64,000 nt of DNA from Candidatus Doudnabacteria bacterium (GTDB taxonomy: Bacteria > Patescibacteriota > Doudnabacteria > UBA920), in assembly GCA_963837465.1 (NCBI GenBank), contig CAWINB010000004.1, forward strand, positions 74,853 to 138,852, read 5' to 3'. Positions 15,207 to 53,673 of this stretch are shown one piece after another. Positions within the stretch are counted from its first letter, which is position 1. The number at the start of each line of letters is the position of its first letter. The position numbers were made by a program, and so were the translations under genes. A model generated the notes under the pieces. The model ran no database searches. It saw nothing but the letters and a program-made list of their open reading frames with translations, and was not told the origin of the DNA.

Positions 15207-15430
15207 TACAAACACATAGAGAATTTTATATATGGATTTGAGTATTTTTTATGTATAAATCATTCACGTATCTACAAAAGTAGAAATTTTATATATGGAT
15301 TTGAGTTTTAGATTCTTATAATATTATAACATATCTACAAAAGTAGAAATTTTATATATGGATTTGAGAGTTCCTGTACGGAAAGGACTGGAATATCTAC
15401 AAAAGTAGAAATTTTATATATGGATTTGAG
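15207..15430 (-). CRISPR. CRISPR array, leader-distal segment: degenerate terminal repeat (15207-15242) plus three intact 36-nt repeats (15270-15305, 15333-15368, 15395-15430); spacers of 27, 27 and 26 nt
   Basis: Repeat on the transcribed (minus) strand is CTCAAATCCATATATAAAATTTCTACTTTTGTAGAT, the canonical Cas12a crRNA repeat 3' hairpin. Confidence 0.9.
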
Positions 15431-15443
15431 TGAACTGCTCTGA

Positions 15444-16403
15444 TTATACCGTACCACTTCGACCGTTTTTGATGAGAGGTTTTAGAGCGGTCTTGGTGTA
15501 GGCCATCGGCGGTTTGTAGCCGATGCTGCTGTGTAATCTTCTATAATTATAGTAGTTAATTTTCTTCTTTACAAACTTAATAACTTCGGTTAAATTGGTC
15601 AGCTCAGATATCTCGCTTTGCAGCTCAGTCTTAAACCTGCCAAAGAAAGATTCCTGTCCTGGATTGTCCGTTGGAGTGCCAGGCTTGGAAAAAGATATCT
15701 TGCCGTGTCCCAGTATCGCTTCCACATAACTGTAACCGGTATACTGACTGCCCCTGTCCTGATGCCAAATCATTTTCTTAAATAATCTTTTTAACAGTTT
15801 GGGACAAGGTGGGAGTCGGCTGATAGTTTTTAAAGCGCTGCAAAACGAATTTAAGACTAAAGTTTCTTCCATGTTGTCATCAATATCGTATCCGTAAACT
15901 GCTTCCCCTAAGTTGTCCTTATGTACACACAAGTAAGCTTTTCCGGTTTTGAACTTCAACTCCGTAATATCCGAAGTAACGGCCTGCAAGGGTTTGGTGA
16001 TATTAGCCTTTAAAAGTAAGTTGGCTTTATCTCCTAAAGCATTTAAAGTTTTTTGAATAAAAGTATCTTTATTCTTTTTAATATTTCTAGGTAGACTAAG
16101 GCCCCAAAGGTTGCTTAATTTAGCCACTTTATCTCGGCCAATAGTAATGCGCTTGTTATCGTTCAGCTCATAGTAAAGCCTTCTTATTCCATAACCAGAA
16201 TTATCTTTTATGACTTTGACAAAGACTGCTTTTAAATGTTTATGGGCAATTTCAAACTTTTGGGTTTTATCACAGGCGTGGTAGTAAGTGTCCTTACTGA
16301 TATTAAAGAGTTTACAGATTTGATTAATCCCAATTCCATCCTGGCCGGCAAACTTGCGACAGTATTCGGCGATGCAAAGCTTGCTTACCCCTGACTGTCT
16401 AAA
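15444..16403 (-). CDS. IS3-family transposase OrfB (integrase core), expressed as an OrfAB fusion by -1 frameshift at T TTT TTA (about 16398-16404); the track ORF 15444..16127 is the Met-initiated portion
   Basis: 'HQDRGSQYTGYSYVEAILGHGKISFSKPGTPTDNPGQESFFGRFKTE...YNYRRLHSSIGYKPP'. The -1 frame is open from the slippery heptamer into 'MAKLSNLWGL...'. Confidence 0.75.
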   Translation of the reverse strand, partial: FRQSGVSKLCIAEYCRKFAGQDGIGINQICKLFNISKDTYYHACDKTQKFEIAHKHLKAVFVKVIKDNSGYGIRRLYYELNDNKRITIGRDKVAKLSNLWGLSLPRNIKKNKDTFIQKTLNALGDKANLLLKANITKPLQAVTSDITELKFKTGKAYLCVHKDNLGEAVYGYDIDDNMEETLVLNSFCSALKTISRLPPCPKLLKRLFKKMIWHQDRGSQYTGYSYVEAILGHGKISFSKPGTPTDNPGQESFFGRFKTELQSEISELTNLTEVIKFVKKKINYYNYRRLHSSIGYKPPMAYTKTALKPLIKNGRSGTV

Positions 16404-16711
16404 AAATTTTTAAGTAAGTTAATTTCCACTTCCTTTTTTCCCAGTAAGGATTCCAGATCACGAATTTGTTGTTTTGCTTGCTCTGTAGTTTTATCTGCTT
16501 TGAGTTCAAAGATGCTGGGACCGTTGTCCAGGAAGTGCCTGCGCCAGGTGGAAATTTGGTTGGGAGCTAAGTTATGCTTCCTGGCCAGTGCTGTAACTTC
16601 CGATTGTTTAAAACTTTCCAGTACCAGGTTAAACTTAAATTGGGCTGAATGTTTAATCTTAGAATTTAATTTGCTGCTACGCTTGTAGACATATTTTTTT
16701 ACATAATTCAT
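16385..16711 (-). CDS. IS3-family transposase OrfA (HTH plus leucine zipper)
   Basis: 108 aa ending at the slippery site; typical OrfA arrangement upstream of OrfB. Confidence 0.75.
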   Translation of the reverse strand: MNYVKKYVYKRSSKLNSKIKHSAQFKFNLVLESFKQSEVTALARKHNLAPNQISTWRRHFLDNGPSIFELKADKTTEQAKQQIRDLESLLGKKEVEINLLKNFLDSQG

Positions 16712-16825
16712 AATGGTTTTAGCAGGGTTACAATTAATTGTATTTTACCCTCTAAAACCTCTCATGCATAGTGGTACGGGAAAGCCAGGACAGATCAGAG
16801 GATTACTACTGGCGCCGGGACTTTG

Positions 16826-17049
16826 ATCTACAAAAGTAGAAATTTTATATATGGATTTGAGTTTTATGGAACGGCGTACAAGCACAGATCTACAAAAGTA
16901 GAAATTTTATATATGGATTTGAGGGGGAATAACCAAGTCGCCGCATTCCATCTACAAAAGTAGAAATTTTATATATGGATTTGAGTATATTCTTTGTGGA
17001 AGATGTGGGCTACATCTACAAAAGTAGAAATTTTATATATGGATTTGAG
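16826..17049 (-). CRISPR. CRISPR array, leader-proximal segment: four intact 36-nt repeats (16826-16861, 16888-16923, 16950-16985, 17014-17049); spacers of 25 (IS-adjacent), 26, 26 and 28 nt
   Basis: Repeats identical to those of the distal segment. Leader 17050-17211 lies between the array and cas2. Confidence 0.9.
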
Positions 17050-17063
17050 TCCGAATTGTTTTA

Positions 17064-17211: not shown

Positions 17212-17493
17212 TTATTTAAAGACTAACACATCTTTCTCTTCGTTAGCCGAATAGCCATAACGAATGACTTTTTTTTGACAGACCAGACAAACTGGAAAAA
17301 TAACAATACTATCGCTATTGGTAAACTGCTTTTTATATACCAATTCTATCTCTTTTAAAATGTTTGTCAATACGCGCGGGCTGTTCTTTATTTCAAAAAC
17401 CGAATACTGAATTCTGCGGCCAAATTTCTTTAAAAATTTGCTGAATTTTGTCCTGGTTTTGTCGTCGGCAAAATCGTAAGAAACTAAAATCAT
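17212..17493 (-). CDS. cas2: CRISPR-associated endoribonuclease Cas2
   Basis: 93 aa starting 'MILVSYDFADDKTRTKFSKFLKKFGRRIQYSVFE'; sits between cas1 and the array. Confidence 0.85.
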   Translation of the reverse strand: MILVSYDFADDKTRTKFSKFLKKFGRRIQYSVFEIKNSPRVLTNILKEIELVYKKQFTNSDSIVIFPVCLVCQKKVIRYGYSANEEKDVLVFK

Positions 17494-17494
17494 A

Positions 17495-18457
17495 TTATTG
17501 AACCTCTTTGTTTAAAATATTAAAGTCAGGAAACTCGCCGCCGCTATGCATAAGAGACCTGTAAAATTTTTGGGTGAATAAATATAAAGCCTCTTTATTG
17601 TCCATAATTGCTTCCATAAAAATTTTGCCGTACTTTTGGCTTTTTTGATAATCTAAAACATATCTTCTGCCTACAACAGAAAAATCTTTACTATCTATTT
17701 GCTTGAGGTTGTAGGATTTTATAAGTTGTTTTTCTATAATACAGCGAAATGGCTCAATGATATCGCAGGTTAGTGATTTCCGCTGGAAAAATAATTTATG
17801 ATAGACCCCTTTGTAGGTATCAAAGCCAAACAGCAATAAAAGCGAATCAATAAAGTTAAATAAAAAAGTATAGCCCATATCCAATAAAAAATTAGGGATA
17901 TCGGGTTTTACCCGCGGCATACGTCTAAGCCAGCCAATTTTCCCAAAATATTCTCCAAAAAATACTCGGCTAAAATTTCCTTCCAGTCCCAATAACTCTT
18001 CAGGATTTCTGGCATTAACGACCTGCGCTAAAAATTCTGCAATCCCAGCTTCAACGTTCAAATCCCTATCTAATAACCTAAACTGGTTTTCCATTTTATT
18101 TGCTACCAATTTTTTTGCCATCCTAAACTCTTTTTCCTCGGGCATAGTGTATTGCATTGACCTAAGCATATAATTTCCCTCTGCCCGCGCGTTAAGGGCG
18201 CCGTATAACCCAAAATTATTACCCAAAAAAAATAAGGAAACCGCCCGCTTGCGGCACTCTTTTACTAAACCAGAGGTAAAAGAAAAGTCCCCGATTACGA
18301 ATATAGCCAAAATGCGGTGGCACGAAGCCTGGTTTATAATTTTTCCCTCTTTTTCAAAAACCACGTTTTCATTTTTAAAGAACAACCGGTTTTTAGCTCC
18401 GTGTTCGGTCTGGACAAATAAAATCTGCTTGGCTTTTAAATCCGGCAAAGTTAGCAT
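17495..18457 (-). CDS. cas1: CRISPR-associated integrase Cas1
   Basis: 320 aa of typical Cas1 length and conservation, adjacent to cas2 and cas4. Confidence 0.85.
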   Translation of the reverse strand: MLTLPDLKAKQILFVQTEHGAKNRLFFKNENVVFEKEGKIINQASCHRILAIFVIGDFSFTSGLVKECRKRAVSLFFLGNNFGLYGALNARAEGNYMLRSMQYTMPEEKEFRMAKKLVANKMENQFRLLDRDLNVEAGIAEFLAQVVNARNPEELLGLEGNFSRVFFGEYFGKIGWLRRMPRVKPDIPNFLLDMGYTFLFNFIDSLLLLFGFDTYKGVYHKLFFQRKSLTCDIIEPFRCIIEKQLIKSYNLKQIDSKDFSVVGRRYVLDYQKSQKYGKIFMEAIMDNKEALYLFTQKFYRSLMHSGGEFPDFNILNKEVQ

Positions 18458-18460
18458 AAG

Positions 18461-19003
18461 TTAGTTCCAAGCTAATGGGCTGTAAATATTATTTTGACAA
18501 TGGGCGCATGAATGTTCGGTAATATCCTTGGGGCTGAAACTTCTCATTTTTTGCAACGTTTGTTCAAATTCTAAAATTTCCTCCGCGCTTGGCAAGCCAA
18601 CTTCATAACGTTTGTTATCGGAAAGGCTGTGTAAAAACATTTTTTCTACTTTATACCCCATTTCTTCCATACAAAACATTTCCGCGTAAAGCTGGTATTT
18701 GTAACCCAAATAAATGTTTTTAATTTTATTTTTGCGCTCTATTAAAGTTTTTCCGGTTTGGTCATATATATCGATCTTGCCAATCAAACCATACCTCTCG
18801 CAATATACATCTATCCCCTGAACAAATCGCTTAGCGCTGGAATAAGTCCCATCTTCTATATTTTCATGCACCAACTTCCCCGCCACCTGCGCAGTTTCGT
18901 GATATCCCCGCTGGTCAAAATTCTCATATATTGTATGCAGATATAAAGACAAAGGACAGTAAAGAAAGTCATTTATTTTGGAAATTTGTATGTAATTTTC
19001 CAT
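18461..19003 (-). CDS. cas4: CRISPR-associated Cas4 (RecB-like nuclease with Fe-S cysteines)
   Basis: 180 aa with an N-terminal 'YCP' and C-terminal 'CAHCQ' cysteines. Order is cas12a-cas4-cas1-cas2. Confidence 0.75.
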   Translation of the reverse strand: MENYIQISKINDFLYCPLSLYLHTIYENFDQRGYHETAQVAGKLVHENIEDGTYSSAKRFVQGIDVYCERYGLIGKIDIYDQTGKTLIERKNKIKNIYLGYKYQLYAEMFCMEEMGYKVEKMFLHSLSDNKRYEVGLPSAEEILEFEQTLQKMRSFSPKDITEHSCAHCQNNIYSPLAWN

Positions 19004-19010
19004 TTATTTT

Positions 19011-22000
19011 TTATTTCTGAACAAAGGAATCCCATTCTGATAAACTAACAAATAAGTCTTTATAAACCAATTTATCTGCGCCGCCTTTGGCCTTCGCGGC
19101 ATCTCTAATTTTATTAATCATATATAAACCTTTTCGAGCTATATTATAAGCTCCATTTGCGTCTCCGTTTATTATTGTTGCCAGACTAAGATTAGCATCT
19201 TTAGGATTACGGCTATCAAAACTGCAAACAGGGCATTGTATAAAATCATCATCCTTTTCAGAACTATTACGAATAGATAGCAATAGGCCAAAATAAAATA
19301 AAAAGTTTTTATAAAATTGCGCCGTCAAATTAGCATTAATTATCGCGTCTGTTATATCCCCTTTTCCACGCCAGTCAATCTTGGATTCGTCAAATAATTC
19401 AATAAACCTTTCTGTAATTTGATAGCTATTAGTAATATAACGCTTTTCTCCATTTTCAATTCTAGGGCTAGTCTTATAGCGAATAACGTCTGAATATAAA
19501 GTCCATTCGTTTTTCCCTGATGGTTTTTCATTACTGAAGTCAGCAATCTTATAAGTAAAAGCGAGCCTATTATTTTTTACCTCGTACTGGATCCGTAAAT
19601 TTTGGATTAACTCTTTTGATTTTTCAACATTTTCGAAAACAGTCTTTAGCCGCGCATCTTTACGGAAACCACAGTTTGGGCAGGTGGTAGAAGTATAAGC
19701 TGGGGCCGTATAGAATATCACACCCGTTTGTCCGGAAAGATTCTGAACACTTTGTATTGGAGAAGTTAGCTGAAAAGCTTTTAAAGGATGACCGAATTCA
19801 CCCTCTTGAGCGTGTTTAAGTACCAAAAAATTCAACTTTTTTACCAATGCCAATTCTAACTTTTGATAAACCTGTTTTTCTATTTTTGTTCTCCCGCGTT
19901 TAAACTTACTATTCAAATCCTCAAATATCACAATAGCATTATACTTTATAACTAAATCGCATAACTTTTTAACGGCGTGGGAAGCATAACCTTCTTTGAG
20001 TTCTTTGATATTTGCTATGGCCTGCCAGTCTAACCGAGCTTGTTTCCGTTGTTTTTCTCTTTCGTCTAATTTTTGGTGATAAGAAATACCATTAACTACA
20101 TTTAGACTCTGATGCTCATTTTCAATAATATTACCCTCGCCATCCAATATACAATAATAACCCAAGTGTTTTTCACCTCGGTCTATACCAATAATATTAA
20201 TCTTATTTTGTACCAACTCCTTATTAACTGCTATGTTAAAATTTTTAGGTGTAATAGCGCCACTATTTGCGTTTAATGATATGGGTAGATGAAGTAATAT
20301 TTTATCTTCCGTGTATCTTTTGTTCCCTATAACATCAATTTTAGTTTTCCTTTCTTTATCAACAACAGACTTAAGTGATTTTGGCCGGAAAAAAACTTCA
20401 GCTCCACCACTTAATTTAAAGACCAAATCGTTCAAATTTTGTTTATCAAATAAAAGTTTGAAGTATGTGGTATGCAGGTTTTCCTTACCGGATGATTTTT
20501 TAGCAAAATCCTTTGAATAAATCTCAAACAAATATAAATGTTTATCTGCCGTTTCTTTAGTTTTTTTATTTGTTCTAATATATACCCCCTGCTCTACATA
20601 AACTTGACTAACCTGTTCAAAATCAAGTTCGTAAGTATTAACCAATTCCAAATCAGCCAGTAAGTCCTTGGTGGCGACATATGTTTTACTAACAAGACTT
20701 TGCAACTCTGGGAACTTTGATATTTTAGTCAGCAGAATTTTGTTAATCCTTTCCAACAATTTTTTCTCAGACATAAGCTTCTTGTCGTCTTTGAAAGTTG
20801 AGCCAAACATGCCTTTATAACTACTTCCAAAAAGACTTGTGGTTTTGAGCTGCTTGTAGACCATTTTTTCATATCGTGCTCCTTTTTCAAATGCAGTAAA
20901 AGCTTCTGGATACTTCTGCCTTTCAAATAATCCTGGGTCATCAGAAATTCCCAGAAAGAACTTTTTATGCTTTTTGAAAATAAAACCACAAAATTGAGCC
21001 GCGCCGGCATCATTTTCAGACCAGCCATCTAATAAATTCCCTTTATCAAAATTCAACTTAACCTTTCTGGTCAAAAATATTTTTTTTGTCAAAAAATTAC
21101 GTAAAGCATCATAATATTTAAAGGCTGCCCAATTATGGTATATATCATTAAATGAATTATAAAAATTGCTTTCAATTTTTATATCTGCAATTTTCTTCTT
21201 CCCTTTTTCTAAAGCTAAATATTTTACCATACGGTATAAGCTTAAAACCGCTTCGGCATAATGCTTTACAATTTCCAAAGACTGTGGGGTTTTATTCCAC
21301 TTTTGTTTCAATAATAACCCAAGCTCTTTATTTGCTTCTTGATAAATCTTTAATAGTTGATAAAATTCACTGAGCCAAATGTTGTAAAAATTATGCAAAT
21401 GACTTTGCGTGGAATCGATTGTCTTAGTTTTAATATATTCTTCCTTAAAAAGATCTTCGTTTTTTATATAGCGTAATGTTTCCAGTGCATTGCTAATTTC
21501 CATAAAACTAACAAAATCCGGTAAATTATCTTTTATATCTTTTTTCTTTTTTTCTTCATTAACAATATTTATAACGGCTTGTTTAAAAATTTCACCATTT
21601 TTAAACCATTTATAGCTTATTGTATTAAAAGCTTGTCCGTTTACATAAATTCCCGATAAATCAAAAGGGGCTTTATCTATGAGCAACGATTTAAATAATT
21701 TTTCAATTTCTGGGATAACTTCATTATTTTCTCTTTCAAATTCGTTTAGTGTGTCTAATAAATTATCATCGTCTTCAATAATTAATCTACCAACTTCTTG
21801 GGCAGATTTCTCGCTTAGAATCTGCTTATACAAAGCCTGAAATAATGGCAATTTTTCTTCTTTGTGTTTCTGCCTATATTCATTAATTTTTTGATTCAAG
21901 CCCTTAGCTCCAACGCCGCCAGCTTCCTTATCTGCGCCAATTATTTTATTATAGACATCAATACCAGATTGCAAAAAACAGTTATTATAATAATCCAAAT

Positions 22001-22718
22001 TAAATATTTTTAAATCCTCCTCGCTAAATGCCAGATCGCCTTGTAGCTGACCTTTATAATATTTATCAAACAGCTCCTTATTTTTGGAAAAAATGGTTAA
22101 GTTTTCATCTATAATACGATTAGCAATTGCCGTATCTTCAGCGCCATCGCTATACAAATTTTCTCTGCTTTGACGAAAATTTCCCAAAGAAGTTGCAAAT
22201 TTTTTAAAAGAATCGATCAAAGCTACCGCTTCTTTATTTTTAATCTCTTGAGACTTTAAGATATCCAAAATTTCCTTTTTGAACAGAAATTTAAAGTCCG
22301 TCGAATTTTCAGCAAATTTTACACCATCGGCCGTATATTTTTCTCTCCACTTATCACCAGCGATTTTAAAATATTCAACAACCTCTCTACGTAGATTCTC
22401 TTTTTCTTTACTAAACGGATTCACTTTACCTTTTAACCCAGTTAAATTGCTACTAGTAAACAGCTCATAAAATTCCTTAAAATCCATTTCAGGGGCCATC
22501 AAGGCATCTATTACAAAACGACGATGTACTTCGTCCAAATATGGTTTTATTTTTTTATAATTTTCCGCTACTAATTTATCTTTTTCAATTATCCGGTTTT
22601 CCACCAACATTTTTAAAGTGTTTCCAACCGGCTTCAACTCAAACCTTAAAGTCTTGGAAAGGGCGTATTTTCCAGTAAATTGTTCAAAAATAGACTTTTC
22701 CTTAATTGTGTTTGGCAT
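19011..22718 (-). CDS. cas12a: Cas12a (Cpf1) type V-A effector nuclease
   Basis: 1235 aa with N-terminal 'YALSKTLRFELKPVGNTL'. RuvC-I 'IGIDRGEKHLGYYCIL', RuvC-II '...VIFEDLNSKFKRGR', RuvC-III 'DANGAYNIARKGL'. Adjacent cas4-cas1-cas2 and a Cas12a-type repeat. Confidence 0.9.
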   Translation of the reverse strand: MPNTIKEKSIFEQFTGKYALSKTLRFELKPVGNTLKMLVENRIIEKDKLVAENYKKIKPYLDEVHRRFVIDALMAPEMDFKEFYELFTSSNLTGLKGKVNPFSKEKENLRREVVEYFKIAGDKWREKYTADGVKFAENSTDFKFLFKKEILDILKSQEIKNKEAVALIDSFKKFATSLGNFRQSRENLYSDGAEDTAIANRIIDENLTIFSKNKELFDKYYKGQLQGDLAFSEEDLKIFNLDYYNNCFLQSGIDVYNKIIGADKEAGGVGAKGLNQKINEYRQKHKEEKLPLFQALYKQILSEKSAQEVGRLIIEDDDNLLDTLNEFERENNEVIPEIEKLFKSLLIDKAPFDLSGIYVNGQAFNTISYKWFKNGEIFKQAVINIVNEEKKKKDIKDNLPDFVSFMEISNALETLRYIKNEDLFKEEYIKTKTIDSTQSHLHNFYNIWLSEFYQLLKIYQEANKELGLLLKQKWNKTPQSLEIVKHYAEAVLSLYRMVKYLALEKGKKKIADIKIESNFYNSFNDIYHNWAAFKYYDALRNFLTKKIFLTRKVKLNFDKGNLLDGWSENDAGAAQFCGFIFKKHKKFFLGISDDPGLFERQKYPEAFTAFEKGARYEKMVYKQLKTTSLFGSSYKGMFGSTFKDDKKLMSEKKLLERINKILLTKISKFPELQSLVSKTYVATKDLLADLELVNTYELDFEQVSQVYVEQGVYIRTNKKTKETADKHLYLFEIYSKDFAKKSSGKENLHTTYFKLLFDKQNLNDLVFKLSGGAEVFFRPKSLKSVVDKERKTKIDVIGNKRYTEDKILLHLPISLNANSGAITPKNFNIAVNKELVQNKINIIGIDRGEKHLGYYCILDGEGNIIENEHQSLNVVNGISYHQKLDEREKQRKQARLDWQAIANIKELKEGYASHAVKKLCDLVIKYNAIVIFEDLNSKFKRGRTKIEKQVYQKLELALVKKLNFLVLKHAQEGEFGHPLKAFQLTSPIQSVQNLSGQTGVIFYTAPAYTSTTCPNCGFRKDARLKTVFENVEKSKELIQNLRIQYEVKNNRLAFTYKIADFSNEKPSGKNEWTLYSDVIRYKTSPRIENGEKRYITNSYQITERFIELFDESKIDWRGKGDITDAIINANLTAQFYKNFLFYFGLLLSIRNSSEKDDDFIQCPVCSFDSRNPKDANLSLATIINGDANGAYNIARKGLYMINKIRDAAKAKGGADKLVYKDLFVSLSEWDSFVQK

Positions 22719-22801
22719 AAGTTTTATTAGGAAAATTTAATTGTTAGGCTTATTTTAGGATAATTTCATAGTTTTTACAAATTTCGAGGCCGTTGACAAA
22801 T

Positions 22802-22830
22802 ATATTAAAACTGCTAAACTGTTTATACAA
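22802..22830 (-). promoter_or_regulatory. putative sigma70-type promoter for cas12a (TTGTAT-17-TAATAT on the minus strand)
   Basis: About 75 nt upstream of the cas12a ATG. Overlaps a plus-strand TTGACA-16-TAAACT promoter-like sequence (22793-22820). Confidence 0.4.
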
Positions 22831-22850
22831 ATGGTCACTAGGCCAACCGA

Positions 22851-22875
22851 GGCTCCCGAAAGGGAGCCGTTTTTT
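22851..22875 (+). terminator. plus-strand intrinsic terminator GGCTCCC-gaaa-GGGAGCC + T6, abutting the mazF-like stop
   Basis: Perfect 7-bp stem with a GNRA-like loop and T-run. Not terminator-like on the minus strand. Confidence 0.55.
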
Positions 22876-23269
22876 ATAGACCTAATAAACCTCCAAGCTT
22901 TTGTTTTATGGCTTGAAGCTGAGCTGGGGATATTTTTCTAACAAGTCTTCTAAACCTTTTTACGCTTACCAGCCGGAGCTGGGACAGGATGACGCTATAC
23001 AGATTTCCCTGATATTCAAGACCGTGATAATAAATACCGATTTTTTCTTTGCTTGTCATTGGCAAGACCCATGCCAACTTTGCGTTAAATTTCCTTACTA
23101 CTAAAACAGGCCTTTCATATAAATCGTTCTTTCCGTCCTGTTCATCACCCAAGTTAACTCCAATACTACACCACCAAATTTCTCTTTCATGAAAGGGTAG
23201 AGTGTCCGGAGCGATTATCTCTAAATTTTTCTTTTCTTTGTTCCAGCCGTCAAAATTTTTTTGATACAT
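22874..23269 (-). CDS. MazF/PemK-family endoribonuclease toxin-like protein (solitary)
   Basis: 'REIWWCSIGVNLGDEQDGKNDLYERPVLVV...VLPMTSK...SVILSQLRLVSVKRF' aligns with the MazF/EndoA core (GDV...GSEQ.G.RP.LV...P.TS...S.VLLDQIRTIDK.RL). No adjacent antitoxin ORF. Confidence 0.65.
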   Translation of the reverse strand: MYQKNFDGWNKEKKNLEIIAPDTLPFHEREIWWCSIGVNLGDEQDGKNDLYERPVLVVRKFNAKLAWVLPMTSKEKIGIYYHGLEYQGNLYSVILSQLRLVSVKRFRRLVRKISPAQLQAIKQKLGGLLGL

Positions 23270-23408
23270 TTATTTTATCTTGTAAGTTATCCGGGAGAAC
23301 TTATACTTACCCCTTCTTATATAGTATACGAACGTTTACCTTATGTAAAGTGCATAGCTATGGCCAATTTAACAACGGTTTTAAAAATGCTATAATTCAG
23401 CCATAGCT

Positions 23409-24389
23409 ATGGACAAGGTTATTGAAATCCAAAATTTAAAGAAAAGCTATCCGCTGGCCAAGGGGAAAAGTTTGGAAGCCATTAAGGGTACGTCTTTTTT
23501 TGTTGGGAAGGGCGAGATTTTTGGGATTTTGGGGCCGAATGGGGCGGGCAAGACTACGACTTTGGAGATTATAGAGGGCCTAAAACGGCAGACTGATGGC
23601 TTGGTAACCGTTTTAGGTTTTAACAACATAACGCAAGCCGATGAAATAAAAAAACGCATTGGGGTGCAGCTGCAATCGGCCGACTATCTCCCCTATTTAA
23701 CCTTAGGGGAATTATTAGATTTATTTGCGTCGCTTTATAGCCCTGTAGCGCAGGCCCCCGGCCTGCCCAAGCAGGAAAAGCAGGCCACGGGCCTGCGCTA
23801 CAAGAAACTCGATTTGCTAAAGCTCGTAGACCTACAAGAAAAAGAAAACGAACAGGTTAAAAACCTGTCCGGCGGCCAAAAGCAGCGTTTTACGATTGCT
23901 ACTTCTTTGGTTAACCGGCCGGAAATTTTATTTTTAGATGAGCCGACCACGGGCCTGGACCCGGCCGCGCGCAGGAATTTGTGGGATTTGGTAAAAAAAA
24001 TCAACGCCCGCGGAATCAGCATTGTCCTGACCACCCACTACATGGAAGAAGCGGAGTTTTTATGCCATCGCGTGGCTATTATGGACCACGGCGAAATTTT
24101 AAAAATAGACGAACCGAGGAAACTTATTGAACAGCTTTCTGGCACTGTGCAGGTTAGTTTTTTAACCAGCGATGACTGCGACGCCGAAATATTCAAATCC
24201 ATAACTGGGGTTAAAAAAGTTTACAGCCAGGCCCCGAAAACCATTATTGATATTGAGAACTTGGATAAAGTTGCCTCGGTAATAGAAAAACTTAAAGCTT
24301 CTAAAATTACTTTCAGCGGCTTTACCGTAAAAACCGCAAGCCTTGAAGATGTTTATTTGCAATTAACAGGCAGAGAATACCAGGAATAG
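23409..24389 (+). CDS. ABC transporter ATP-binding protein
   Basis: Walker A 'GPNGAGKTT', signature 'LSGGQKQR', Walker B 'ILFLDEPTTGLD'. Confidence 0.9.
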   Translation: MDKVIEIQNLKKSYPLAKGKSLEAIKGTSFFVGKGEIFGILGPNGAGKTTTLEIIEGLKRQTDGLVTVLGFNNITQADEIKKRIGVQLQSADYLPYLTLGELLDLFASLYSPVAQAPGLPKQEKQATGLRYKKLDLLKLVDLQEKENEQVKNLSGGQKQRFTIATSLVNRPEILFLDEPTTGLDPAARRNLWDLVKKINARGISIVLTTHYMEEAEFLCHRVAIMDHGEILKIDEPRKLIEQLSGTVQVSFLTSDDCDAEIFKSITGVKKVYSQAPKTIIDIENLDKVASVIEKLKASKITFSGFTVKTASLEDVYLQLTGREYQE

Positions 24390-24420: not shown

Positions 24421-24789
24421 ATGCAAATTCAAAGTTACAAAGATTTAATAGCATGGCAAAAGTCCATAATCCTTGTGAAGATTATTTACAAGATTTGTAA
24501 AGAATTTCCTAAAATGGAGTTATATAATCTTTCCAGCCAGATGCAGCGCTCAGCGATTTCCATACCATCTAATATTGCGGAAGGCTGGGCAAGAAACCAC
24601 AAACTTGAATTCGCCCGATTTCTTTCGATTGCTTATGCATCGGCCGCAGAACTGGAAACTCAAATCATTATTGCAAAAGATCAATATCCGGCTGTTGACT
24701 ACACAGAAGCAGAAAATTTATTATTAGAAATACAAAAAATACTATTTGTTCTTATAAGAAACACCAAATCGGCTGAACAAAAATGGTAG
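24421..24789 (+). CDS. four-helix-bundle protein (23S rRNA intervening-sequence protein family), inserted between the ABC ATPase and permease genes
   Basis: 122 aa; 'YKDLIAWQKS...LSSQMQRSAISIPSNIAEGWAR' is typical of TIGR02436-like proteins. Confidence 0.8.
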   Translation: MQIQSYKDLIAWQKSIILVKIIYKICKEFPKMELYNLSSQMQRSAISIPSNIAEGWARNHKLEFARFLSIAYASAAELETQIIIAKDQYPAVDYTEAENLLLEIQKILFVLIRNTKSAEQKW

Positions 24790-30369: not shown

Positions 30370-30758
30370 TATAACCTGGGTTAAGGATCGCGGCTGCGCA
30401 AGCAGGTTGTCCGTCTTTTGCAAGACTAATGAATTAACAAACTTTCGAGATGTTAATCCCGCGATCCAAGCCTAATGTTTTCGGGAGCCGACCCTGGGGG
30501 TTGGATGCTCATTATCCAGCCGTTTTCCGCGCAGACGGAACCTGCAAGGATATGGGTAGTCGGCTTCCGTCCAGTACCAAGCCATAGTAATTAAAGAGGA
30601 ATTGGGCATGCGACCTGATTTGCCGCAGGTTGTAAAATCCGTTTGCCCGGATTTTGAGCCCAGGATTAGTTTTAATTCCTGACAGGCGCGCCGCCAGAAC
30701 GCCATAAGTCAGAACCCGGGCTCGAGTAGTTCCTTCTCCTCCTGCCCGGCTTTTTTTT
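30370..30758 (+). ncRNA. candidate ~390-nt structured ncRNA (class unresolved; 3' region AGUCAGAACCCGGGCU resembles the RNase P RNA P4 3' strand ACAGAACCCGGCUUA)
   Basis: TTGACA-17-TAGATT promoter-like sequence (30334-30362) and intrinsic terminator CCCGGGC...GCCCGGC + T8 (30715-30758). Local pairing GGATCGCGG (30385-30393) with CCGCGATCC (30459-30467). No convincing ORF in 600 nt. uvrB has its own downstream -10 (TATATT about 30789). Confidence 0.35.
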
Positions 30759-30805
30759 GTTCGCCGATGCTGGTATGCTAATAATTGGTATATTGATATT
30801 AAGCT

Positions 30806-32902
30806 ATGTCAAAATTTAAATTACAATCCAAGTTTAAACCTGCTGGCGACCAACCCAAGGCTATTGAAGGCTTGATTAAATCTATAGAGGCCAAGCGCCG
30901 CTACCAGACTTTGCTTGGAGTAACGGGCTCGGGAAAAACCTTCTCCATGGCGAACGTGGTACAGCATTTCCAAAAACCCACGCTCATCATCAGCCACAAC
31001 AAAACTTTGGCCGCGCAGTTGGCCGCGGAGTTTCAGGAATTTTTTCCGGATAACGCCGTGCACTATTTTGTTTCCTATTACGATTACTACCAGCCCGAAG
31101 CCTATATCCCCCGCTCAGATACCTACATAGAAAAAGACACCCAAATTAACGAAGAGATAGACCGTTTGCGCAACGCGGCCACGCAATCGCTTTTATCCCG
31201 AAAAGATGTGCTGATAGTAGCCAGCGTTTCCTGCATTTACGGGCTTGGCAACCCCGCCAATTATTTGGAACTGTCCCTGCCGGTAAAAAAAGGCCAGTCG
31301 CTTAAACGCGACAAGCTAATTAGAAGGCTAACAGACCTCCAGTATCATAGAAACGATCTTGAGCTGGAGCGCGGAAGTTTTAGAGCCAAGGGCGACGTGG
31401 TGGAAATTATTTTATCTTCCGAGGACACCGTTATCCGTATGGATTTTTTTGGCGATGTCCTGGAGAATATAGAACGTCTGGACGTGGTAACCGGCCGCAA
31501 AATCGAAAGCTTAAAGGAATTTATTATTTTCCCGGCCAAGCATTTTGTGACGCCCGAAGACAAGCTTAAGGAGGCCACGGAAAATATCCGGCGGGAACTG
31601 GCTGACCAGATTAAAAAATTCAAATCGCGGGACAAGCTTATAGAAGCCCAGCGCGTAGAACAGCGCACCAATTTTGACCTGGAAATGCTCACCAACACCG
31701 GTTTTGTTTCGGGCATAGAAAACTACTCCCGCCAGCTGGAAGGCCGCGAAGCCGGCAGTCCGCCTTCCACATTAATTGATTATTTTCCCGATGACTTCCT
31801 TTTATTTATAGACGAATCCCACCAGAGCATCCCGCAAATTGGCGCCATGTACGAGGGCGACAAATCGCGCAAAACCACTTTGGTGGATTACGGCTTCCGG
31901 CTGCCCAGCGCTTTGGACAACCGGCCGTTAAAATTCGCCGAGTTTGAAAAAAAAATCAACCAGGTAATTTTTGTTTCCGCCACGCCGGCCGAGTTTGAAA
32001 TAGAAAGAAGCCTGACGCAAAAAGACACCAAGTTCGTCACAAAGTCCAAACGTACACAAGAGGAGCAAAGCATTATAGACGCGCGCGGGAAATTAAAACA
32101 AATGGATCCGCCTTCAATTGTTGAGCAAATTATCCGCCCCACTGGACTGCTTGACCCAACAATAGAAATCAAACCCATAAAAAACCAAGTGGATGATTTA
32201 ATGGAGCGGATTAAAGAACGGATAAATAAACACCAGCGCGTTTTGGTGGCAACCTTAACCAAGCGGATGGCCGAAGAGTTGACCGAATATTTAAAAGAAG
32301 ACGGCGTAAAAGTCCAGTACCTGCACAGCGATGTGGATACTTTTGAGCGTTTGGAAATACTACGCGACCTGCGCTTGGGAGTTTTTAATGTCTTGGTGGG
32401 AATTAACCTATTACGGGAAGGCCTGGATTTGCCGGAAGTTTCCCTGGTGGCAATTTTGGACGCGGACAAAGAAGGTTTTTTGCGCAGCGAAACTTTTTTT
32501 ATGCAAATGATGGGCCGCGCGGCCCGCCACTTAGAGGGCCATGTGGTAATGTATGCCGATAGGATTACCGGGAGTATGGATAGAGCTATAAGCGAAACCA
32601 CCCGCCGCCGCAAACTCCAGGAAAACTATAACAAAAAGCACGGCATTACCCCGCAGTCCATAAAAAAAGCCATAGCCGATTCCCGCCTGGCCGGCAGCAA
32701 AAAAGAAATTGAAGCTGTTGACGACGAGGCCAAGCAGATTGATCCGAGCAAAATGAACAACGAAGAGATAAAATTCTACATGGACGAACTGGAACAACAA
32801 ATGGACTTGGCCGCCAAAAACCTGGAATTTGAACTTGCGGCGAGACTAAGGGACAGAATTGATGAGATAAAAAAAGTGCAAAAACTGACAGCAAAAAGAT
32901 AA
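30806..32902 (+). CDS. uvrB: excinuclease ABC subunit B
   Basis: 'LLGVTGSGKTFSMANVV' Walker A, helicase motifs and a C-terminal UVR domain. Confidence 0.95.
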   Translation: MSKFKLQSKFKPAGDQPKAIEGLIKSIEAKRRYQTLLGVTGSGKTFSMANVVQHFQKPTLIISHNKTLAAQLAAEFQEFFPDNAVHYFVSYYDYYQPEAYIPRSDTYIEKDTQINEEIDRLRNAATQSLLSRKDVLIVASVSCIYGLGNPANYLELSLPVKKGQSLKRDKLIRRLTDLQYHRNDLELERGSFRAKGDVVEIILSSEDTVIRMDFFGDVLENIERLDVVTGRKIESLKEFIIFPAKHFVTPEDKLKEATENIRRELADQIKKFKSRDKLIEAQRVEQRTNFDLEMLTNTGFVSGIENYSRQLEGREAGSPPSTLIDYFPDDFLLFIDESHQSIPQIGAMYEGDKSRKTTLVDYGFRLPSALDNRPLKFAEFEKKINQVIFVSATPAEFEIERSLTQKDTKFVTKSKRTQEEQSIIDARGKLKQMDPPSIVEQIIRPTGLLDPTIEIKPIKNQVDDLMERIKERINKHQRVLVATLTKRMAEELTEYLKEDGVKVQYLHSDVDTFERLEILRDLRLGVFNVLVGINLLREGLDLPEVSLVAILDADKEGFLRSETFFMQMMGRAARHLEGHVVMYADRITGSMDRAISETTRRRKLQENYNKKHGITPQSIKKAIADSRLAGSKKEIEAVDDEAKQIDPSKMNNEEIKFYMDELEQQMDLAAKNLEFELAARLRDRIDEIKKVQKLTAKR

Positions 32903-37567: not shown

Positions 37568-40500
37568 TTGATTTTTGGGTCAAAATACTATAAAGTTTGT
37601 TGTATGAAAAATTCATGGATTAACAATTATTTTGACGGGTTTACAATAGAAAAAGGGCGGGATTACTTTAACCAAAACAGGGTAAAGAGTATTAAATTTG
37701 AAGACGATGAATTAACGGCAAAAGTTTGGGGTACCGGCGCAAACCCTTACGATACAAAAATTCATCTGGAAAAAAGCGGAATATGTCACACCGAATGCAG
37801 TTGTCCAATAGGAGACGGCTGCAAACATTGCTCGGCTCTGGCTTTGGCTTACTTATCGGAGCAAAATAACCTGGCCTTGCCAACCATTAACGCGGCCGCC
37901 AAACAGGTTGTAAGCGGGCCTCCGGTAAAAATCGGCGCGTGGCAAAAATTTTTGGAGCCGATAATCGGCGGCAAACAGGAAACAAACAGCGACGCCGCGA
38001 CTCCGTGGCGCCTGCAAATTATATTGCGAACCAATGAGCCGGATTATTACCAAGAGGGTGTGGCGGAAGGCGCCGAACTACTGGTGGAACTTCGTCCGCA
38101 AAAAGTACATAACCAAACCGGCAAAACTATTTTCAGCGGCGTGGAATGGAACAGCCTGGAAAACTTAAAAACCCGCGACTATCAATATTACGTCCACGAG
38201 CCGGACAAACAACCCCCCAGAAGCCAAATAATTTGGCTTTGTAATTTACACGACGCCTTAAACCCGGACACCGGTTATTATTTTTCATCCAAAGACTGGC
38301 TGCCGGTGCCCGCCAGAAAAGCCGCGGATGTTTTTCGGTTGCTGTTAACAGCCGAAGAATTCGGCATAGACATAAAAGACCTGGCCGGCATTAAAGTAAA
38401 TATCAGCAACAAACCGGTAAAAAATTCTTTGGTAATAACCGAAGCCGGCAATAATGTAACTATCAGCCCTGAACTGACCCAGGACGGCAAAGTCATTGAT
38501 ATGGAAAGCCTGGAAACGGGAAGGCCGCCTGTTTTTGTCCTTTTGACCGGCAAACAGCCGAATTCCAAACAGCCGCTGGAGCTGAGACCTGTAATTCAAG
38601 CCGGCGCCGGCGTTAAAAAATTTGAAAGGCCTCTGGCAATACCGCAAAATGAACTTGACCAGTTTGTTAAAGAGTACCTGCCGCTGCTGGCCAGGGATTT
38701 TTATATAATTTCACAAACTGAAAAAATAAAACCGCCGATTTTAGGTGATCCGGTTTTAAACATATCCGTAAATAAAATATCTCCCCAATCCATAGGCATA
38801 GAAAATTATCTTGCCTACAATAACCGGCGCCTGGATTTGGCAAAAAATGATATTTATCTGGATAACGGGAACGAAGCGCCAATAGCCAGAAATTTGCGGC
38901 TGGAAAACCGTTTGAGCCGCGTAGTGACGGAAAAAATAATAGCGGCCGGCATTAAAACAGCGGCCAGGGAACAATTTACGCTGGCCGGCGCCGAAGCCAA
39001 AAGTTTTTTGGAAAAGGTTTTGCCGTCGCTGCGCGAACATCAGAACATTATTCTGGAGTCCGCCGCCGATTTGCCCCGGTTTGAAGAAGTGCTTGGGGCT
39101 CCAAAAATAGAAATTGAAATGGAGCAGGGGCAAAGCCAGGATTGGTTTGACCTCCAGCTAAAAATTTTCGTTGATGGCGCCAGCATACCTGTCGCAGAAA
39201 TTTTAAACGCGCTCGCGCAAAACAGCACCCTGTTGTTTTTGGCGGACGGCAGGTACATAGATTTAAGCAAAAGTCCGGAAATCCAAAAACTCCAGGCCCT
39301 GCTCAAACGCGCCAACAAGCTAAAAGACGTGGCCGGCGGCAAGCTCTCCATAAGCAAGTTTGAAGCCGGATGGTTCGAACAGCTTAAAGAACTCGGCATT
39401 GTGGCCAAGCAATCCAAACTTTGGGAAGACAGTGTGGGAAAACTAAAAAATTCTTCCGCTCCGGAATTGCTGCCGCATCCAAAAAATTGGCAGCACAAAC
39501 TGCGGGATTACCAACTGGAAGGCTTTTCCTGGCTGAACTTTTTGGCCGAAAACAACCTGGGCGGAATTTTGGCCGATGACATGGGCCTGGGCAAGACTGC
39601 TCAAAGTATTGCCCTGATATGCAAAGTTGCGGAAACAACCAAACTGCCCACCCTGATAGTAGCCCCAACCAGCGTGGTGGAAAGCTGGGATATGGAACTT
39701 AAAAAATTCGCGCCGGAACTTAAAACGGCAATTTTAAGGAGCGGCGACAGAAAAGCCGCGCTTAAAACGCTGGGCAAAAACCAGGTAGTGATAACTTCTT
39801 ACGCCCTTGTCAGGCGCGATTTTGAAATTTTAAAAAAACAGGTCTGGAAAATGCTGGTACTGGACGAAGCTCAAATGTTGAAAAACTACCAGTCGCAAAG
39901 CTACGGGCTGATAAGACAATTAAATGCCGGTGTAAAAATAGGGCTCTCCGGCACGCCAATGGAAAACAATTTAAGCGAGCTCTGGTCGGTTTTTTCCATA
40001 GTTTGTCCCGGACTGTTTTCCGATATTGAGCACTTTAAGGAATTTTTCCAAAAACCAATAGAAAGATTTTCCAATAAGGAAGCGCTGGACAGCCTGCGCA
40101 AACAAATCCGGCCTTTTATAATGCGGCGCAAAAAAGAACTGCTGGGAAAAGAATTGCCGGCAAAAATTGAACAAATTTCCCTGATGGATTTACAGGGCCG
40201 CCACCGAAAAATTTATGACCTCTGGCTGGCCAAGCAGAGGCAACTGGTTTTGGGGTTAATTGAACAGGGCGGGATGAAAGCCAACCGCTTTGCCATTCTT
40301 ACCGCCCTTACCCGCTTAAGGCAACTTTGCCTGCATCCGGCATTGGTGGATAAAAAACACCTGTCGGTGGAAGCTGTAAAAGTAGAAGGGCTGATTGGAC
40401 AAATTGAAGCCATTGTAGACGGCGGCCACCAGGTGCTGGTATTTAGCCAGTTTACCGGTTTTTTGGAAATTATCAGAAGCAGGCTTTCCGCGGAAGGCTA

Positions 40501-53466: not shown

Positions 53467-53673
53467 TGTTTCTAAAACACAAAGCCCCGCGCCAGCATGA
53501 GCCTTACGGCTCCATGGCCTTTCGACCATGACCCAACGAAGAGTAGCTGAACACGGGGTTCAGTATTTTCGTTGGGTTTTTTCATGCCATGCCCGGGCCC
53601 TTGGGGGGCTGCGGGTTTAGGCATATTAAGTTGTTAGCCTTATTTTAGGGTAATTTTAGGTTTTTTACAAATT

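What the first reader, a model, noticed from the sequence alone, without database searches (positions are those of the whole stretch)
22719..23408. Solitary MazF/PemK-like toxin gene directly upstream of cas12a, with overlapping face-to-face promoters and a plus-strand mini-transcript terminator
A 131-aa MazF-fold protein (22874-23269, minus strand) is the first gene upstream of cas12a in the same orientation. No MazE-like antitoxin ORF is adjacent; the next gene upstream is a divergent ABC transporter. In the 155-nt gap a minus-strand TTGTAT-17-TAATAT promoter (for cas12a) overlaps a plus-strand TTGACA-16-TAAACT promoter-like sequence. That plus-strand sequence is followed about 30 nt later by a perfect plus-strand intrinsic terminator (GGCTCCC-gaaa-GGGAGCC-T6) abutting the mazF-like stop. 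This could encode a roughly 50-nt RNA that acts as an RNA antitoxin or as an antisense regulator of cas12a or the toxin. Either would link toxin activity to the CRISPR locus.
Basis: inference. Interest (0 to 1): 0.55.

Follow-up and report, generated by a model that had tools for sequence, protein, structure and literature searches.

The report
MazF toxin with convergent small-RNA partner
The lone MazF-type toxin gene beside cas12a belongs to a mobile two-gene cassette whose second gene is a conserved 49-nt small RNA read towards the toxin's stop codon, probably an RNA antitoxin, and its position next to CRISPR is incidental.

Summary
The sequence features are real. The ORF at 22874-23269(-) is a MazF/PemK-family protein that keeps the catalytic Arg and Thr/Ser, and no protein antitoxin lies next to it. 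The plus-strand TTGACA-16-TGcTAAACT promoter and GGCTCCC/GGGAGCC-T6 terminator are conserved. In about 150 homologous loci the toxin gene is followed on the opposite strand by the same unit: a near-consensus promoter, a start at ACAAAUGG, hairpin P1, an NCGAG linker and a hypervariable terminator hairpin whose U-tail reaches the toxin stop codon. These loci are mostly Patescibacteria, plus Saprospiraceae, Methylocystis and a gammaproteobacterial MAG. Twelve of 13 base pairs show compensatory changes. A scan with the RNA core alone found a convergent toxin gene in 58 of 64 loci. No conserved protein neighbour exists, and Rfam has no matching family. None of the other loci carries cas genes, and the three closest Cas12a loci lack the cassette, so the proposed CRISPR link is not supported. 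Distant homologues on Campylobacter, Helicobacter and Nitratiruptor plasmids and prophages share the layout. pVir of C. jejuni 81-176 hosts the published cjrA/cjpT RNA-antitoxin system, but I could not verify that CjpT is this gene. Best reading: a toxin-antitoxin cassette with an RNA antitoxin. Antisense action (type I-like) is slightly favoured over direct toxin binding (type III-like).

The parts
22874..23269 (-). MazF/PemK-family toxin gene (131 aa). It has an N-terminal extension of about 28 aa. R53 and T72/S73 align to the catalytic R29 and T51/T52 of E. coli MazF.
   Evidence: Pfam PF02452, 38 bits. AF2 model with Foldseek top hits all MazF. hhalign to EcMazF. Homologues: 555 clusters at 90% identity and 1538 clusters at 50% identity with E<=1e-10.
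22793..22798 (+). -35 box (TTGACA) of the small-RNA promoter
   Evidence: TTGACA or TTGACT is present in 66 of 88 homologous sRNA genes, and the spacer is 16-17 nt in 83 of 88.
22812..22820 (+). Extended -10 box (TGc-TAAACT) of the small-RNA promoter
   Evidence: The -10 box ends 6 nt before the conserved ACA in 71 of 88 loci, which places the start at A22827.
22827..22875 (+). Predicted 49-nt small RNA: ACAAAUGGUCACUAGGCCAACCGAGGCUCCCGAAAGGGAGCCGUUUUUU. It converges on the toxin gene, and its last 2 nt overlap the toxin stop codon.
   Evidence: CM hit at 22818-22876, 62 bits, E 9e-13. Fold z = -4.2. Covariation: 12/13 pairs compensatory and 95.9% of cells paired. No Rfam family matches.
22832..22845 (+). 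Hairpin P1 (UGGUC-ACUA-GGCCA). It covaries across loci (GGCC/GGCC, GGAC/GUCC, GACC/GGUC, GGC-UUCG-GCC).
22851..22875 (+). Hairpin P2 plus G and a U6 tail: the intrinsic terminator of the small RNA. The stem sequence is hypervariable between loci but always pairs.
23321..23349 (-). Candidate promoter of the toxin gene (TTTACA-17-TACTAT, 9/12), about 50 nt upstream of the ATG. A consensus match only.
   Evidence: It is not conserved in relatives. In 26 of 62 relatives a TGnTAAAAT box ends 5-9 nt before the ATG instead.
22752..22780 (-). Context, not part of the cassette: the best candidate cas12a promoter (TTGTAA-17-TAAAAT, 9/12), lying between the sRNA promoter and the cas12a ATG.

Best explanation
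The toxin gene (22874-23269, minus strand) and the convergent 49-nt small-RNA gene (promoter 22793-22820, transcript 22827-22875, plus strand) form one mobile toxin-antitoxin cassette. The toxin is a MazF-family endoribonuclease and the small RNA is its antitoxin.

Mechanism I commit to:
1. The RNA is made in excess from a near-consensus, probably constitutive promoter.
2. It ends at its own terminator, exactly at the toxin stop codon.
3. The toxin transcript has no terminator of its own, so it reads through the complement of the RNA gene.
4. The small RNA therefore pairs perfectly with the 3' end of the toxin mRNA and triggers its cleavage and decay. This is type I-like, as in the convergent B. 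subtilis txpA/RatA and bsrG/SR4 pairs and as reported for cjrA on C. jejuni pVir.

The cassette landed by chance between an ABC-transporter operon and cas12a, and it has no dedicated role in CRISPR. At most, toxin read-through adds to cas12a transcription and the cassette stabilises the region.

Shown: the RNA gene's conservation, structure, promoter and obligate linkage to the toxin; the MazF fold and catalytic residues; the absence of a protein antitoxin and of cas synteny.
Inferred: transcription of the RNA, toxicity of the protein, the antitoxin role and the antisense mode.

My estimates: the RNA gene is real and partnered with the toxin, about 0.9; it is the antitoxin, about 0.7; it acts by antisense, about 0.45.
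For: - The RNA gene follows the toxin gene on the opposite strand in essentially all 82 protein-found loci.
- Conversely, 58 of 64 loci found with the RNA core alone carry a convergent toxin gene 28-54 nt away. Three are cut by a contig end and two have a divergent toxin.
- Structure is supported by covariation: 12/13 pairs compensatory, 0 of 500 shuffles reach the observed values, and slid controls give 44-70% paired against 95.9%.
- The promoter is conserved in position although its spacer sequence is not.
- No conserved protein neighbour exists, and the small local ORFs have no Pfam match.
- The toxin keeps the MazF fold and active-site residues.
- Remnant toxins with an intact RNA gene, and extra toxin-less RNA genes, fit antitoxin behaviour.
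- Several MAGs carry two cassettes: L036/L037, L053/L064, L033/L077 and L041/L085.
- For antisense action: orientation and abutment to the stop codon are the most deeply conserved features. They persist in Campylobacter, Helicobacter and Nitratiruptor plasmid and prophage homologues (32-38% identity) whose RNA sequences are unrelated (the CM gives no hit).
- The P2' hairpin lacks a U-tract in the toxin direction.
- CjrA on pVir of C. jejuni 81-176 is published as an antisense RNA antitoxin of a type I system (PMC10470494, PMC7826846). The only toxin-like gene annotated on that plasmid is this family's homologue.
Against: - There are no expression or toxicity data.
- Pure cis-antisense action does not explain why the unpaired nucleotides (A-x-AAAUGG at the 5' end, and GAG before P2) are at least 90% invariant down to 40% toxin identity while P2 drifts freely.
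- No consistent toxin-sense terminator lies beyond the RNA gene (10/82 loci against a 7.6% background), so the extent of the overlap is unknown.
- The identity of CjpT with the pVir PemK-like gene could not be checked because the paper is not held.
- Classical type I toxins are small membrane peptides, not 131-aa RNases.
Confidence: 0.45

Rival explanations
1. Same cassette, but the small RNA neutralises the toxin protein directly (type III-like). The single-stranded 5' ACAAAU, next to hairpin P1, sits in the MazF RNA-binding groove as a pseudo-substrate or as a retained cleavage product. The convergent layout would then serve only compact co-inheritance.
For: - Near-invariant unpaired nucleotides (ACAAAUGG, GAG) contrast with a hypervariable P2 stem.
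- MazF enzymes recognise short single-stranded motifs such as ACA or UACAU (established knowledge), and the fold and catalytic residues are kept.
- Toxin-less extra RNA genes with intact promoters occur in L010 and L012.
- There is no cognate-specific pairing with the toxin translation-initiation region.
- The family has a conserved N-terminal extension with invariant K4, W9 and K13 that canonical MazF lacks.
Against: - The convergent, stop-codon-abutting layout is conserved even where the RNA sequence is not, and protein binding alone does not require it.
- There are no tandem RNA repeats and no ToxN/AbiQ-type toxin.
- The probable relative cjrA is described as antisense/type I (PMC10470494).
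Confidence: 0.3
2. The small RNA is not an antitoxin. The pair might be a dedicated RNase plus its substrate or cofactor RNA, or the RNA might regulate something else in trans. The protein might be non-toxic, or controlled by an unlinked factor.
For: - No experimental data exist for this clade.
- PADLOC and NCBIfam give no hit for the protein.
- The strongly conserved RNA sequence could reflect a trans target.
Against: - Linkage is near-obligate in both directions.
- Catalytic residues are kept.
- The cassette moves among unrelated contexts and mobile elements, and occurs in multiple copies per genome, which is typical toxin-antitoxin behaviour.
- Toxin remnants sit beside an intact RNA gene.
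Confidence: 0.12
3. One reading: the toxin and/or the small RNA is functionally coupled to the type V-A CRISPR locus. It would act as an antisense regulator of cas12a or as a CreTA-like safeguard.
For: - The cassette is adjacent to cas12a on the same strand, with no terminator between them in the toxin direction.
- Type I toxin-antitoxin modules next to CRISPR arrays exist in C. difficile (PMC5961336).
Against: - None of 146 other cassette loci has cas12a, cas4, cas1 or cas2 nearby.
- The three closest Cas12a loci lack both the toxin and the RNA.
- No repeat-like sequence lies near the toxin.
- The RNA is transcribed away from cas12a and ends before any cas sequence.
Confidence: 0.05
4. The plus-strand element encodes a small protein antitoxin: the 36-aa ORF at 22831-22941, which starts at the conserved ATG.
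For: The ATG within ACAAATGG is conserved, and spurious ORFs beginning 'MATRPTE...' cluster across 14 loci.
Against: - P1 length varies by non-multiples of 3, so the frame is not kept.
- The substitution pattern preserves base pairs rather than codons.
- The ORF would run through the terminator without a conserved stop codon, and there is no ribosome-binding site.
- There is no Pfam match.
Confidence: 0.02

Closest known systems
cjrA/cjpT type I toxin-antitoxin system of Campylobacter jejuni 81-176 plasmid pVir (Shen et al. 2016, Mol Microbiol 101:909; cited in PMC10470494 and PMC7826846)
   Same: A protein toxin is controlled by an antisense small RNA on a mobile element. pVir carries a solitary PemK/MazF-family gene (RS08830) that is 34% identical to the window protein (E 6e-8). 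A convergent TGATATAAT promoter lies about 95 nt downstream of it, and a GC hairpin abuts its stop codon.
   Different: I could not verify that CjpT is that gene. The Campylobacter RNA is about twice as long and unrelated in sequence, and model R1 does not detect it. The Patescibacteria clade has its own conserved RNA family with invariant ACAAAUGG and GAG.
Convergent type I systems of Bacillus subtilis (txpA/RatA, bsrG/SR4) - from established knowledge
   Same: The toxin mRNA and the antitoxin RNA are transcribed convergently and overlap at their 3' ends. The RNA promotes decay of the toxin mRNA.
   Different: Those toxins are small membrane peptides and the overlaps are about 100 nt or more. 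Here the toxin is a 131-aa MazF-fold RNase and the RNA is about 50 nt, ending at the stop codon.
Type III systems ToxIN, CptIN and TenpIN
   Same: An RNA antitoxin acts against an endoribonuclease toxin. ToxN has a Kid/MazF-like fold (established knowledge; PMC8860590 for E. coli ToxIN).
   Different: Type III RNAs are tandem repeats upstream of the toxin on the same strand, separated from it by a terminator and processed by the toxin. Here there is a single non-repeated RNA, convergent and downstream, with its own promoter. The toxin matches PemK_toxin rather than ToxN.
Canonical type II mazEF / pemIK / kis-kid
   Same: The toxin shares the fold, the GxEQxG...RP loop, and the catalytic Arg and Thr/Ser.
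   Different: There is no MazE/PemI protein gene in the window or as a conserved neighbour. The protein has an extra N-terminal helix and a 5-residue loop insertion, and no PDB sequence match.
CRISPR-linked toxin-antitoxin modules (C. difficile type I modules next to arrays, PMC5961336; CreTA, from established knowledge)
   Same: A toxin-antitoxin module lies physically next to a CRISPR-Cas locus.
   Different: The association is not conserved here (0 of 146 loci), and there is no repeat-like creA element.

Membership tests
MazF/PemK toxin family (Pfam PF02452) | Profile match above the curated cut-off | tested here: met
   38 bits against 23.1, residues 29-126
MazF/PemK toxin family (Pfam PF02452) | MazF/Kid beta-barrel fold | tested here: met
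   AF2 model (pLDDT 66.5, moderate). The Foldseek PDB hits listed (top 50 of 58 with E<=0.001) are all MazF-family (MazF, MoxT, YdcE), TM 0.54-0.68
MazF/PemK toxin family (Pfam PF02452) | Catalytic Arg (EcMazF R29) and Thr/Ser (T52) | tested here: met
   hhalign aligns ERP53 to HRP29 and PMTSK to PCTTQSK. R53 and P54 are invariant in 45 homologues.
MazF/PemK toxin family (Pfam PF02452) | Sequence-specific endoribonuclease activity and toxicity | not testable with these tools
   Needs expression and cleavage assays
Type II toxin-antitoxin system (mazEF-like operon) | Adjacent co-transcribed protein antitoxin (MazE/PemI/AbrB or RHH) | tested here: not met
   No such ORF in the window. No conserved neighbour family across 82 loci.
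Type I toxin-antitoxin system | Antitoxin is an RNA complementary to the toxin mRNA | tested here: inconclusive
   The convergent RNA gene overlaps the stop codon by 2 nt. Full complementarity requires toxin read-through, which is inferred from the lack of a U-tract.
Type I toxin-antitoxin system | Toxin is a small hydrophobic peptide | tested here: not met
   The toxin is a 131-aa soluble MazF-fold protein. Known exceptions exist (SymE, RalR).
Type III toxin-antitoxin system (ToxIN/CptIN/TenpIN) | Tandem-repeat RNA antitoxin upstream of the toxin on the same strand | tested here: not met
   No tandem or direct repeats near the toxin. The RNA is single, downstream and convergent.
Type III toxin-antitoxin system (ToxIN/CptIN/TenpIN) | ToxN/AbiQ-family toxin | tested here: not met
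   Pfam gives only PemK_toxin, and PADLOC gives no hit.
Type III toxin-antitoxin system (ToxIN/CptIN/TenpIN) | RNA binds and inhibits the toxin protein | not testable with these tools
   Needs EMSA, co-purification or a structure
CRISPR-coupled toxin-antitoxin module (CreTA-like or array-associated) | Conserved synteny with cas genes or arrays | tested here: not met
   0/82 and 0/64 loci carry cas genes. Three Cas12a relatives lack the cassette.
CRISPR-coupled toxin-antitoxin module (CreTA-like or array-associated) | Repeat-like (creA-type) guide element near the toxin | tested here: not met
   The repeat 3' handle matches only the array, plus one 3-mismatch site at 40372.
Any Rfam 15 RNA family | Match at the gathering score | tested here: not met
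   The only match at gathering score anywhere in the window is LOOT, elsewhere. In 22700-22900 there are only sub-threshold matches, E 0.5-9 and 11-17 bits against gathering scores of 44-100.
cjrA/cjpT (C. jejuni pVir) | Toxin homologous to CjpT | not testable with these tools
   The pVir PemK-like gene is a homologue and the only toxin annotated on pVir. The primary paper is not held.

The most novel reading that the evidence does not exclude
A large MazF subfamily (about 1500 clusters at 50% identity, concentrated in the tiny genomes of Patescibacteria) is neutralised not by MazE but by a roughly 50-nt promoter-to-terminator RNA that binds the toxin directly through its invariant 5' ACAAAUGG and hairpin P1. 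That would be a single-copy, non-repeat RNA-protein toxin-antitoxin type distinct from both type I and type III. It would mean that many 'orphan type II toxins' in databases are mis-typed.
Probability: 0.3. Interest if true: 0.8.

Novelty: new variant of a known kind. Interest (0 to 1): 0.62.

Why it matters
- Databases annotate these proteins as 'type II PemK/MazF family toxins' with no partner. Here the partner turns out to be an unannotated small-RNA gene that is absent from Rfam.
- This would extend RNA-antitoxin control to the best-studied toxin fold.
- It would explain a class of 'solitary' toxins.
- It would add one of the few conserved small RNAs known in Patescibacteria, with an easily testable promoter-to-terminator unit.
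- It gives a clean genetic test for telling antisense action from protein-binding action.
- It is also a caution against reading function into adjacency with cas genes.

Tried and rejected
- Rfam at gathering and at E-value thresholds gave no family for the element.
- NCBIfam and PADLOC gave no hit for the protein.
- A profile search of PDB sequences found no relative.
- The viral-contig scan found no relative.
- A creA-like degenerate repeat was searched for and is absent.
- Trans pairing of the RNA with the toxin start region: cognate pairs are no better than non-cognate or shuffled pairs (-15.4, -15.8 and -16.4 kcal/mol).
- A toxin-sense terminator beyond the RNA gene is not enriched.
- The small-peptide reading of the plus strand is rejected on frame shifts and pair-preserving substitutions.
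- Model R1 on Campylobacterota homologues gave no hit, so their similarity is architectural only and was read by eye.
- Attempts to obtain Shen et al. 2016, or any text naming CjpT's family, failed.

Full report
**Observation.** The window carries a type V-A CRISPR locus on the minus strand:
- cas12a at 19011-22718, cas4 at 18461-19003, cas1 at 17495-18457 and cas2 at 17212-17493;
- a CRISPR array whose 36-nt repeats end in TCTACTTTTGTAGAT and which is split by an IS3-family element.

The first gene upstream, 155 nt away on the same strand, is ORF 22874-23269 (131 aa). It matches Pfam PemK_toxin above the curated cut-off (38 bits against 23.1). NCBIfam and PADLOC give no hit. The next gene is a divergent ABC ATPase (23409-24389). 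The five ORFs of 26-44 aa that lie mainly in the two flanking gaps have no Pfam match.

On the plus strand of the 155-nt gap the scan finds TTGACA-16-TAAACT (22793-22820, 10/12, preceded by TG). It also finds the terminator GGCTCCC-GAAA-GGGAGCC at 22851-22868, followed by G and T6. The T-run overlaps the toxin's TAA stop codon. A better cas12a promoter candidate lies at 22780..22752.

**The protein.**
- Hundreds of homologues at 65-79% identity exist, nearly all about 130 aa. They come mostly from Patescibacteria (CPR) MAGs, plus Saprospiraceae.
- A profile search of 1.84 billion representatives gives 1538 clusters at 50% identity with E<=1e-10, matched end to end.
- No solved structure is detectable by sequence.
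- An AF2 model of moderate quality (pLDDT 66.5) retrieves only MazF-family structures: M. tuberculosis MazF-mt1, E. coli MazF, S. aureus MazF and relatives, with TM 0.54-0.68.
The catalytic Arg (R53) and Thr/Ser (T72/S73) are therefore kept. R53 and P54 are invariant in 45 homologues.
- The family adds an N-terminal segment of about 28 residues (helix 6-18, with invariant K4, W9 and K13) and a 5-residue loop insertion.

**Synteny.** The closest homologues sit in unrelated contexts, for example after an amino-acid kinase-family (PF00696) gene or next to hypothetical genes. A scan of one genome per species returned 80 further loci. By tblastn, none of the 82 loci has cas12a, cas4, cas1 or cas2 within the 3-kb flanks fetched. 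The three closest Cas12a homologues are only 37-39% identical. Their loci have no PemK gene upstream and no match to the RNA model. Adjacency to cas12a is therefore idiosyncratic.

**The conserved element.** The roughly 90 nt after the toxin stop codon is conserved in every context. Read on the strand opposite the toxin, it consists of:
- a -35 box, TTGACA or TTGACT (66 of 88);
- a 16-17-nt spacer of variable sequence (83 of 88);
- a -10 box, TATAcT, TG-extended in 46 of 88;
- exactly 6 nt in 71 of 88;
- then ACAAAUGG, hairpin P1, NNCGAG, hairpin P2 and a GUUCGUUUU-type tail that reaches the toxin stop codon.

The predicted start is the A of ACAAAUGG. In the window this gives a 49-nt RNA at 22827-22875. 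It folds into the two hairpins at -21.5 kcal/mol, z = -4.2.

A covariance model (R1, 65 positions, 13 pairs) finds a hit directly after the toxin gene, on the opposite strand, in all but a few loci. The exceptions have insertions (L041, L083), are cut by a contig end (L073) or show only a divergent hairpin that continues to the contig end (L086). In the 64-kb window the model hits only 22818-22876 (62 bits, E 9e-13).

On the model-fitted alignment 95.9% of cells pair and 12 of 13 pairs show changes on both sides. None of 500 shuffles reaches the observed values. Sliding the partners gives 44-70% paired. That alignment leans towards the structure. However, the raw sequences show the same thing by eye: P2 stems are almost all different yet always complementary, and P1 switches between GGCC/GGCC, GGAC/GUCC, GACC/GGUC and GGC-UUCG-GCC. 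The unpaired A-x-AAAUGG and GAG are at least 90% invariant. Rfam 15 has no such family.

**Linkage in the other direction.** Scanning metagenome contigs with the RNA core alone returned 64 loci:
- 58 have a convergent toxin gene 28-54 nt beyond the pattern;
- 3 are cut by a contig end;
- 2 have a more divergent toxin 139 nt away;
- 1 has none.

Several loci keep the RNA core next to a toxin remnant (L110, L116, L129, L135). L010 and L012 carry a second, toxin-less RNA gene of another subtype with its own promoter. No protein family recurs among the neighbours. The only 'cluster' is spurious ORFs that read through the RNA. Several MAGs carry two cassettes. Saprospiraceae copies lie in a prophage-like region and keep the RNA at 70.9 bits. 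A cultured Methylocystis also has it (L074, 51 bits).

**Wider family.** In the plasmid and phage collections, homologues at 32-38% identity occur on the following:
- C. jejuni 81-176 pVir;
- C. coli plasmids;
- Helicobacter suis and other Helicobacter plasmids;
- Nitratiruptor plasmids;
- Campylobacter phages: the CJIE4 prophages, PC10 and CJLB-13.

They are annotated as solitary PemK/MazF toxins. R1 does not detect an RNA there. By eye, however, each locus I read has the same layout on the opposite strand: an extended -10 box 60-100 nt downstream, internal hairpins, and a GC hairpin abutting the toxin stop codon.

pVir of 81-176 is the plasmid on which cjrA, 'an antisense sRNA ... [quoted passage not shown] 2016). 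The PemK-like gene is the only toxin annotated on pVir. I could not obtain the primary paper to confirm that CjpT is this gene, so that link is an inference.

**Mechanism.**
*Shown:*
- a structured, promoter-to-terminator RNA gene obligately paired with an apparently catalytically competent MazF-family gene;
- the pair moves as a unit among unrelated sites and mobile elements;
- no protein antitoxin accompanies it.

*Inferred:* the RNA is the antitoxin.

*For antisense (type I-like) action:*
- Orientation and stop-codon abutment are the deepest conserved traits.
- The hairpin has no U-tract in the toxin direction, so toxin transcripts should read through the complement of the RNA.
- cjrA is a probable precedent.
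- In 26 of 62 relatives a TGnTAAAAT box ends 5-9 nt before the toxin ATG (controls 1-2 of 62), and SD-like motifs are rare (3 of 62). The toxin mRNA there is probably leaderless, which leaves only its 3' end as an antisense target.

*For direct binding (type III-like):*
- The invariant unpaired nucleotides are not explained by cis-antisense pairing.
- MazF enzymes are known to prefer short single-stranded motifs such as ACA.
- Toxin-less RNA genes exist.

*Tests that gave no signal or were inconclusive:*
- The RNA pairs with its own toxin's start region no better than with non-cognate or shuffled ones.
- A toxin-sense terminator beyond the RNA gene is not enriched.

I commit to the antisense mode at about 0.45, with direct binding at about 0.3.

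**Relation to CRISPR.** Nothing beyond position supports a link. In this genome, toxin read-through could add to cas12a transcription, and an addictive cassette could incidentally stabilise the locus, as proposed for the C. difficile array-adjacent type I modules (PMC5961336). Both are untested side effects.

**Verdict.** The small-RNA idea is strongly supported by comparative evidence. The CRISPR link is not supported. The finding is best filed as a new variant of RNA-antitoxin systems built on a MazF toxin, together with a previously uncatalogued small-RNA family.

Noticed in passing
window 15222-17062: The V-A CRISPR array is split by an IS3-family insertion (orfA 16385-16711, orfB 15444-16127, minus strand). 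Four repeats lie on the cas2 side (17014..16826) and three or four beyond the IS (15395..15222).
   Followed up: partly
window 53499-53623 (-): LOOT RNA (Rfam RF03000), 65.6 bits against a gathering score of 46.4. It is the only Rfam match in the window at gathering score.
   Followed up: no
window 24421-24789 (+): A 23S_rRNA_IVP-family (four-helix bundle) gene sits between the ABC ATPase gene and the ABC-2 permease gene.
   Followed up: no
window 19011-22718 (-): This Cas12a has no homologue above 39% identity among 5.8 billion proteins, and its own sequence was not returned by the search.
   Followed up: partly
L010 3511-3575 and L012 3552-3615 (minus strand of each locus): A second, toxin-less small-RNA gene of a different subtype (ACAAAG-[C/U]GCCG-[U/C]AAGGCU-CCGAG...) has its own promoter (TGCTATACT extended -10; a clear TTGACT -35 only in L012). 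It lies in tandem just upstream of the cognate RNA gene.
   Followed up: partly
L110, L116, L129, L135: Toxin remnants (only the last 25-57 residues are detectable) lie next to an intact small-RNA core. L120 has the RNA core with no toxin at all.
   Followed up: partly
Toxin start regions of L007-L040 and others: In 26 of 62 relatives an extended -10 box (TGnTAAAAT or TGnTATAAT) ends 5-9 nt before the toxin ATG, and SD-like motifs are almost absent (3 of 62). This suggests leaderless toxin mRNAs. The window copy lacks this box.
   Followed up: partly
L151 (C. jejuni pVir 30634-31140), L152 (Nitratiruptor plasmid), L157 (phage CJIE4-1), L158 (H. suis plasmid): Distant homologues (32-38% identity) on plasmids and prophages show the same convergent promoter-hairpin layout ending at the toxin stop codon, with unrelated RNA sequences. 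The Nitratiruptor copy also has an RHH-like 62-aa ORF just downstream.
   Followed up: partly
L002-L005, about 220 nt downstream of the toxin: A 58-aa AbrB/MazE-like ORF lies on the toxin strand, beyond the RNA gene and a terminator. It was not seen in the other loci, so it is probably part of a separate module.
   Followed up: no
L159-L161: Saprospiraceae copies (70% identical toxin, RNA at 70.9 bits) lie between a Phage_rep_O gene and a LexA/S24 repressor-like gene. This is a prophage-like context and indicates transfer of the cassette across phyla.
   Followed up: partly
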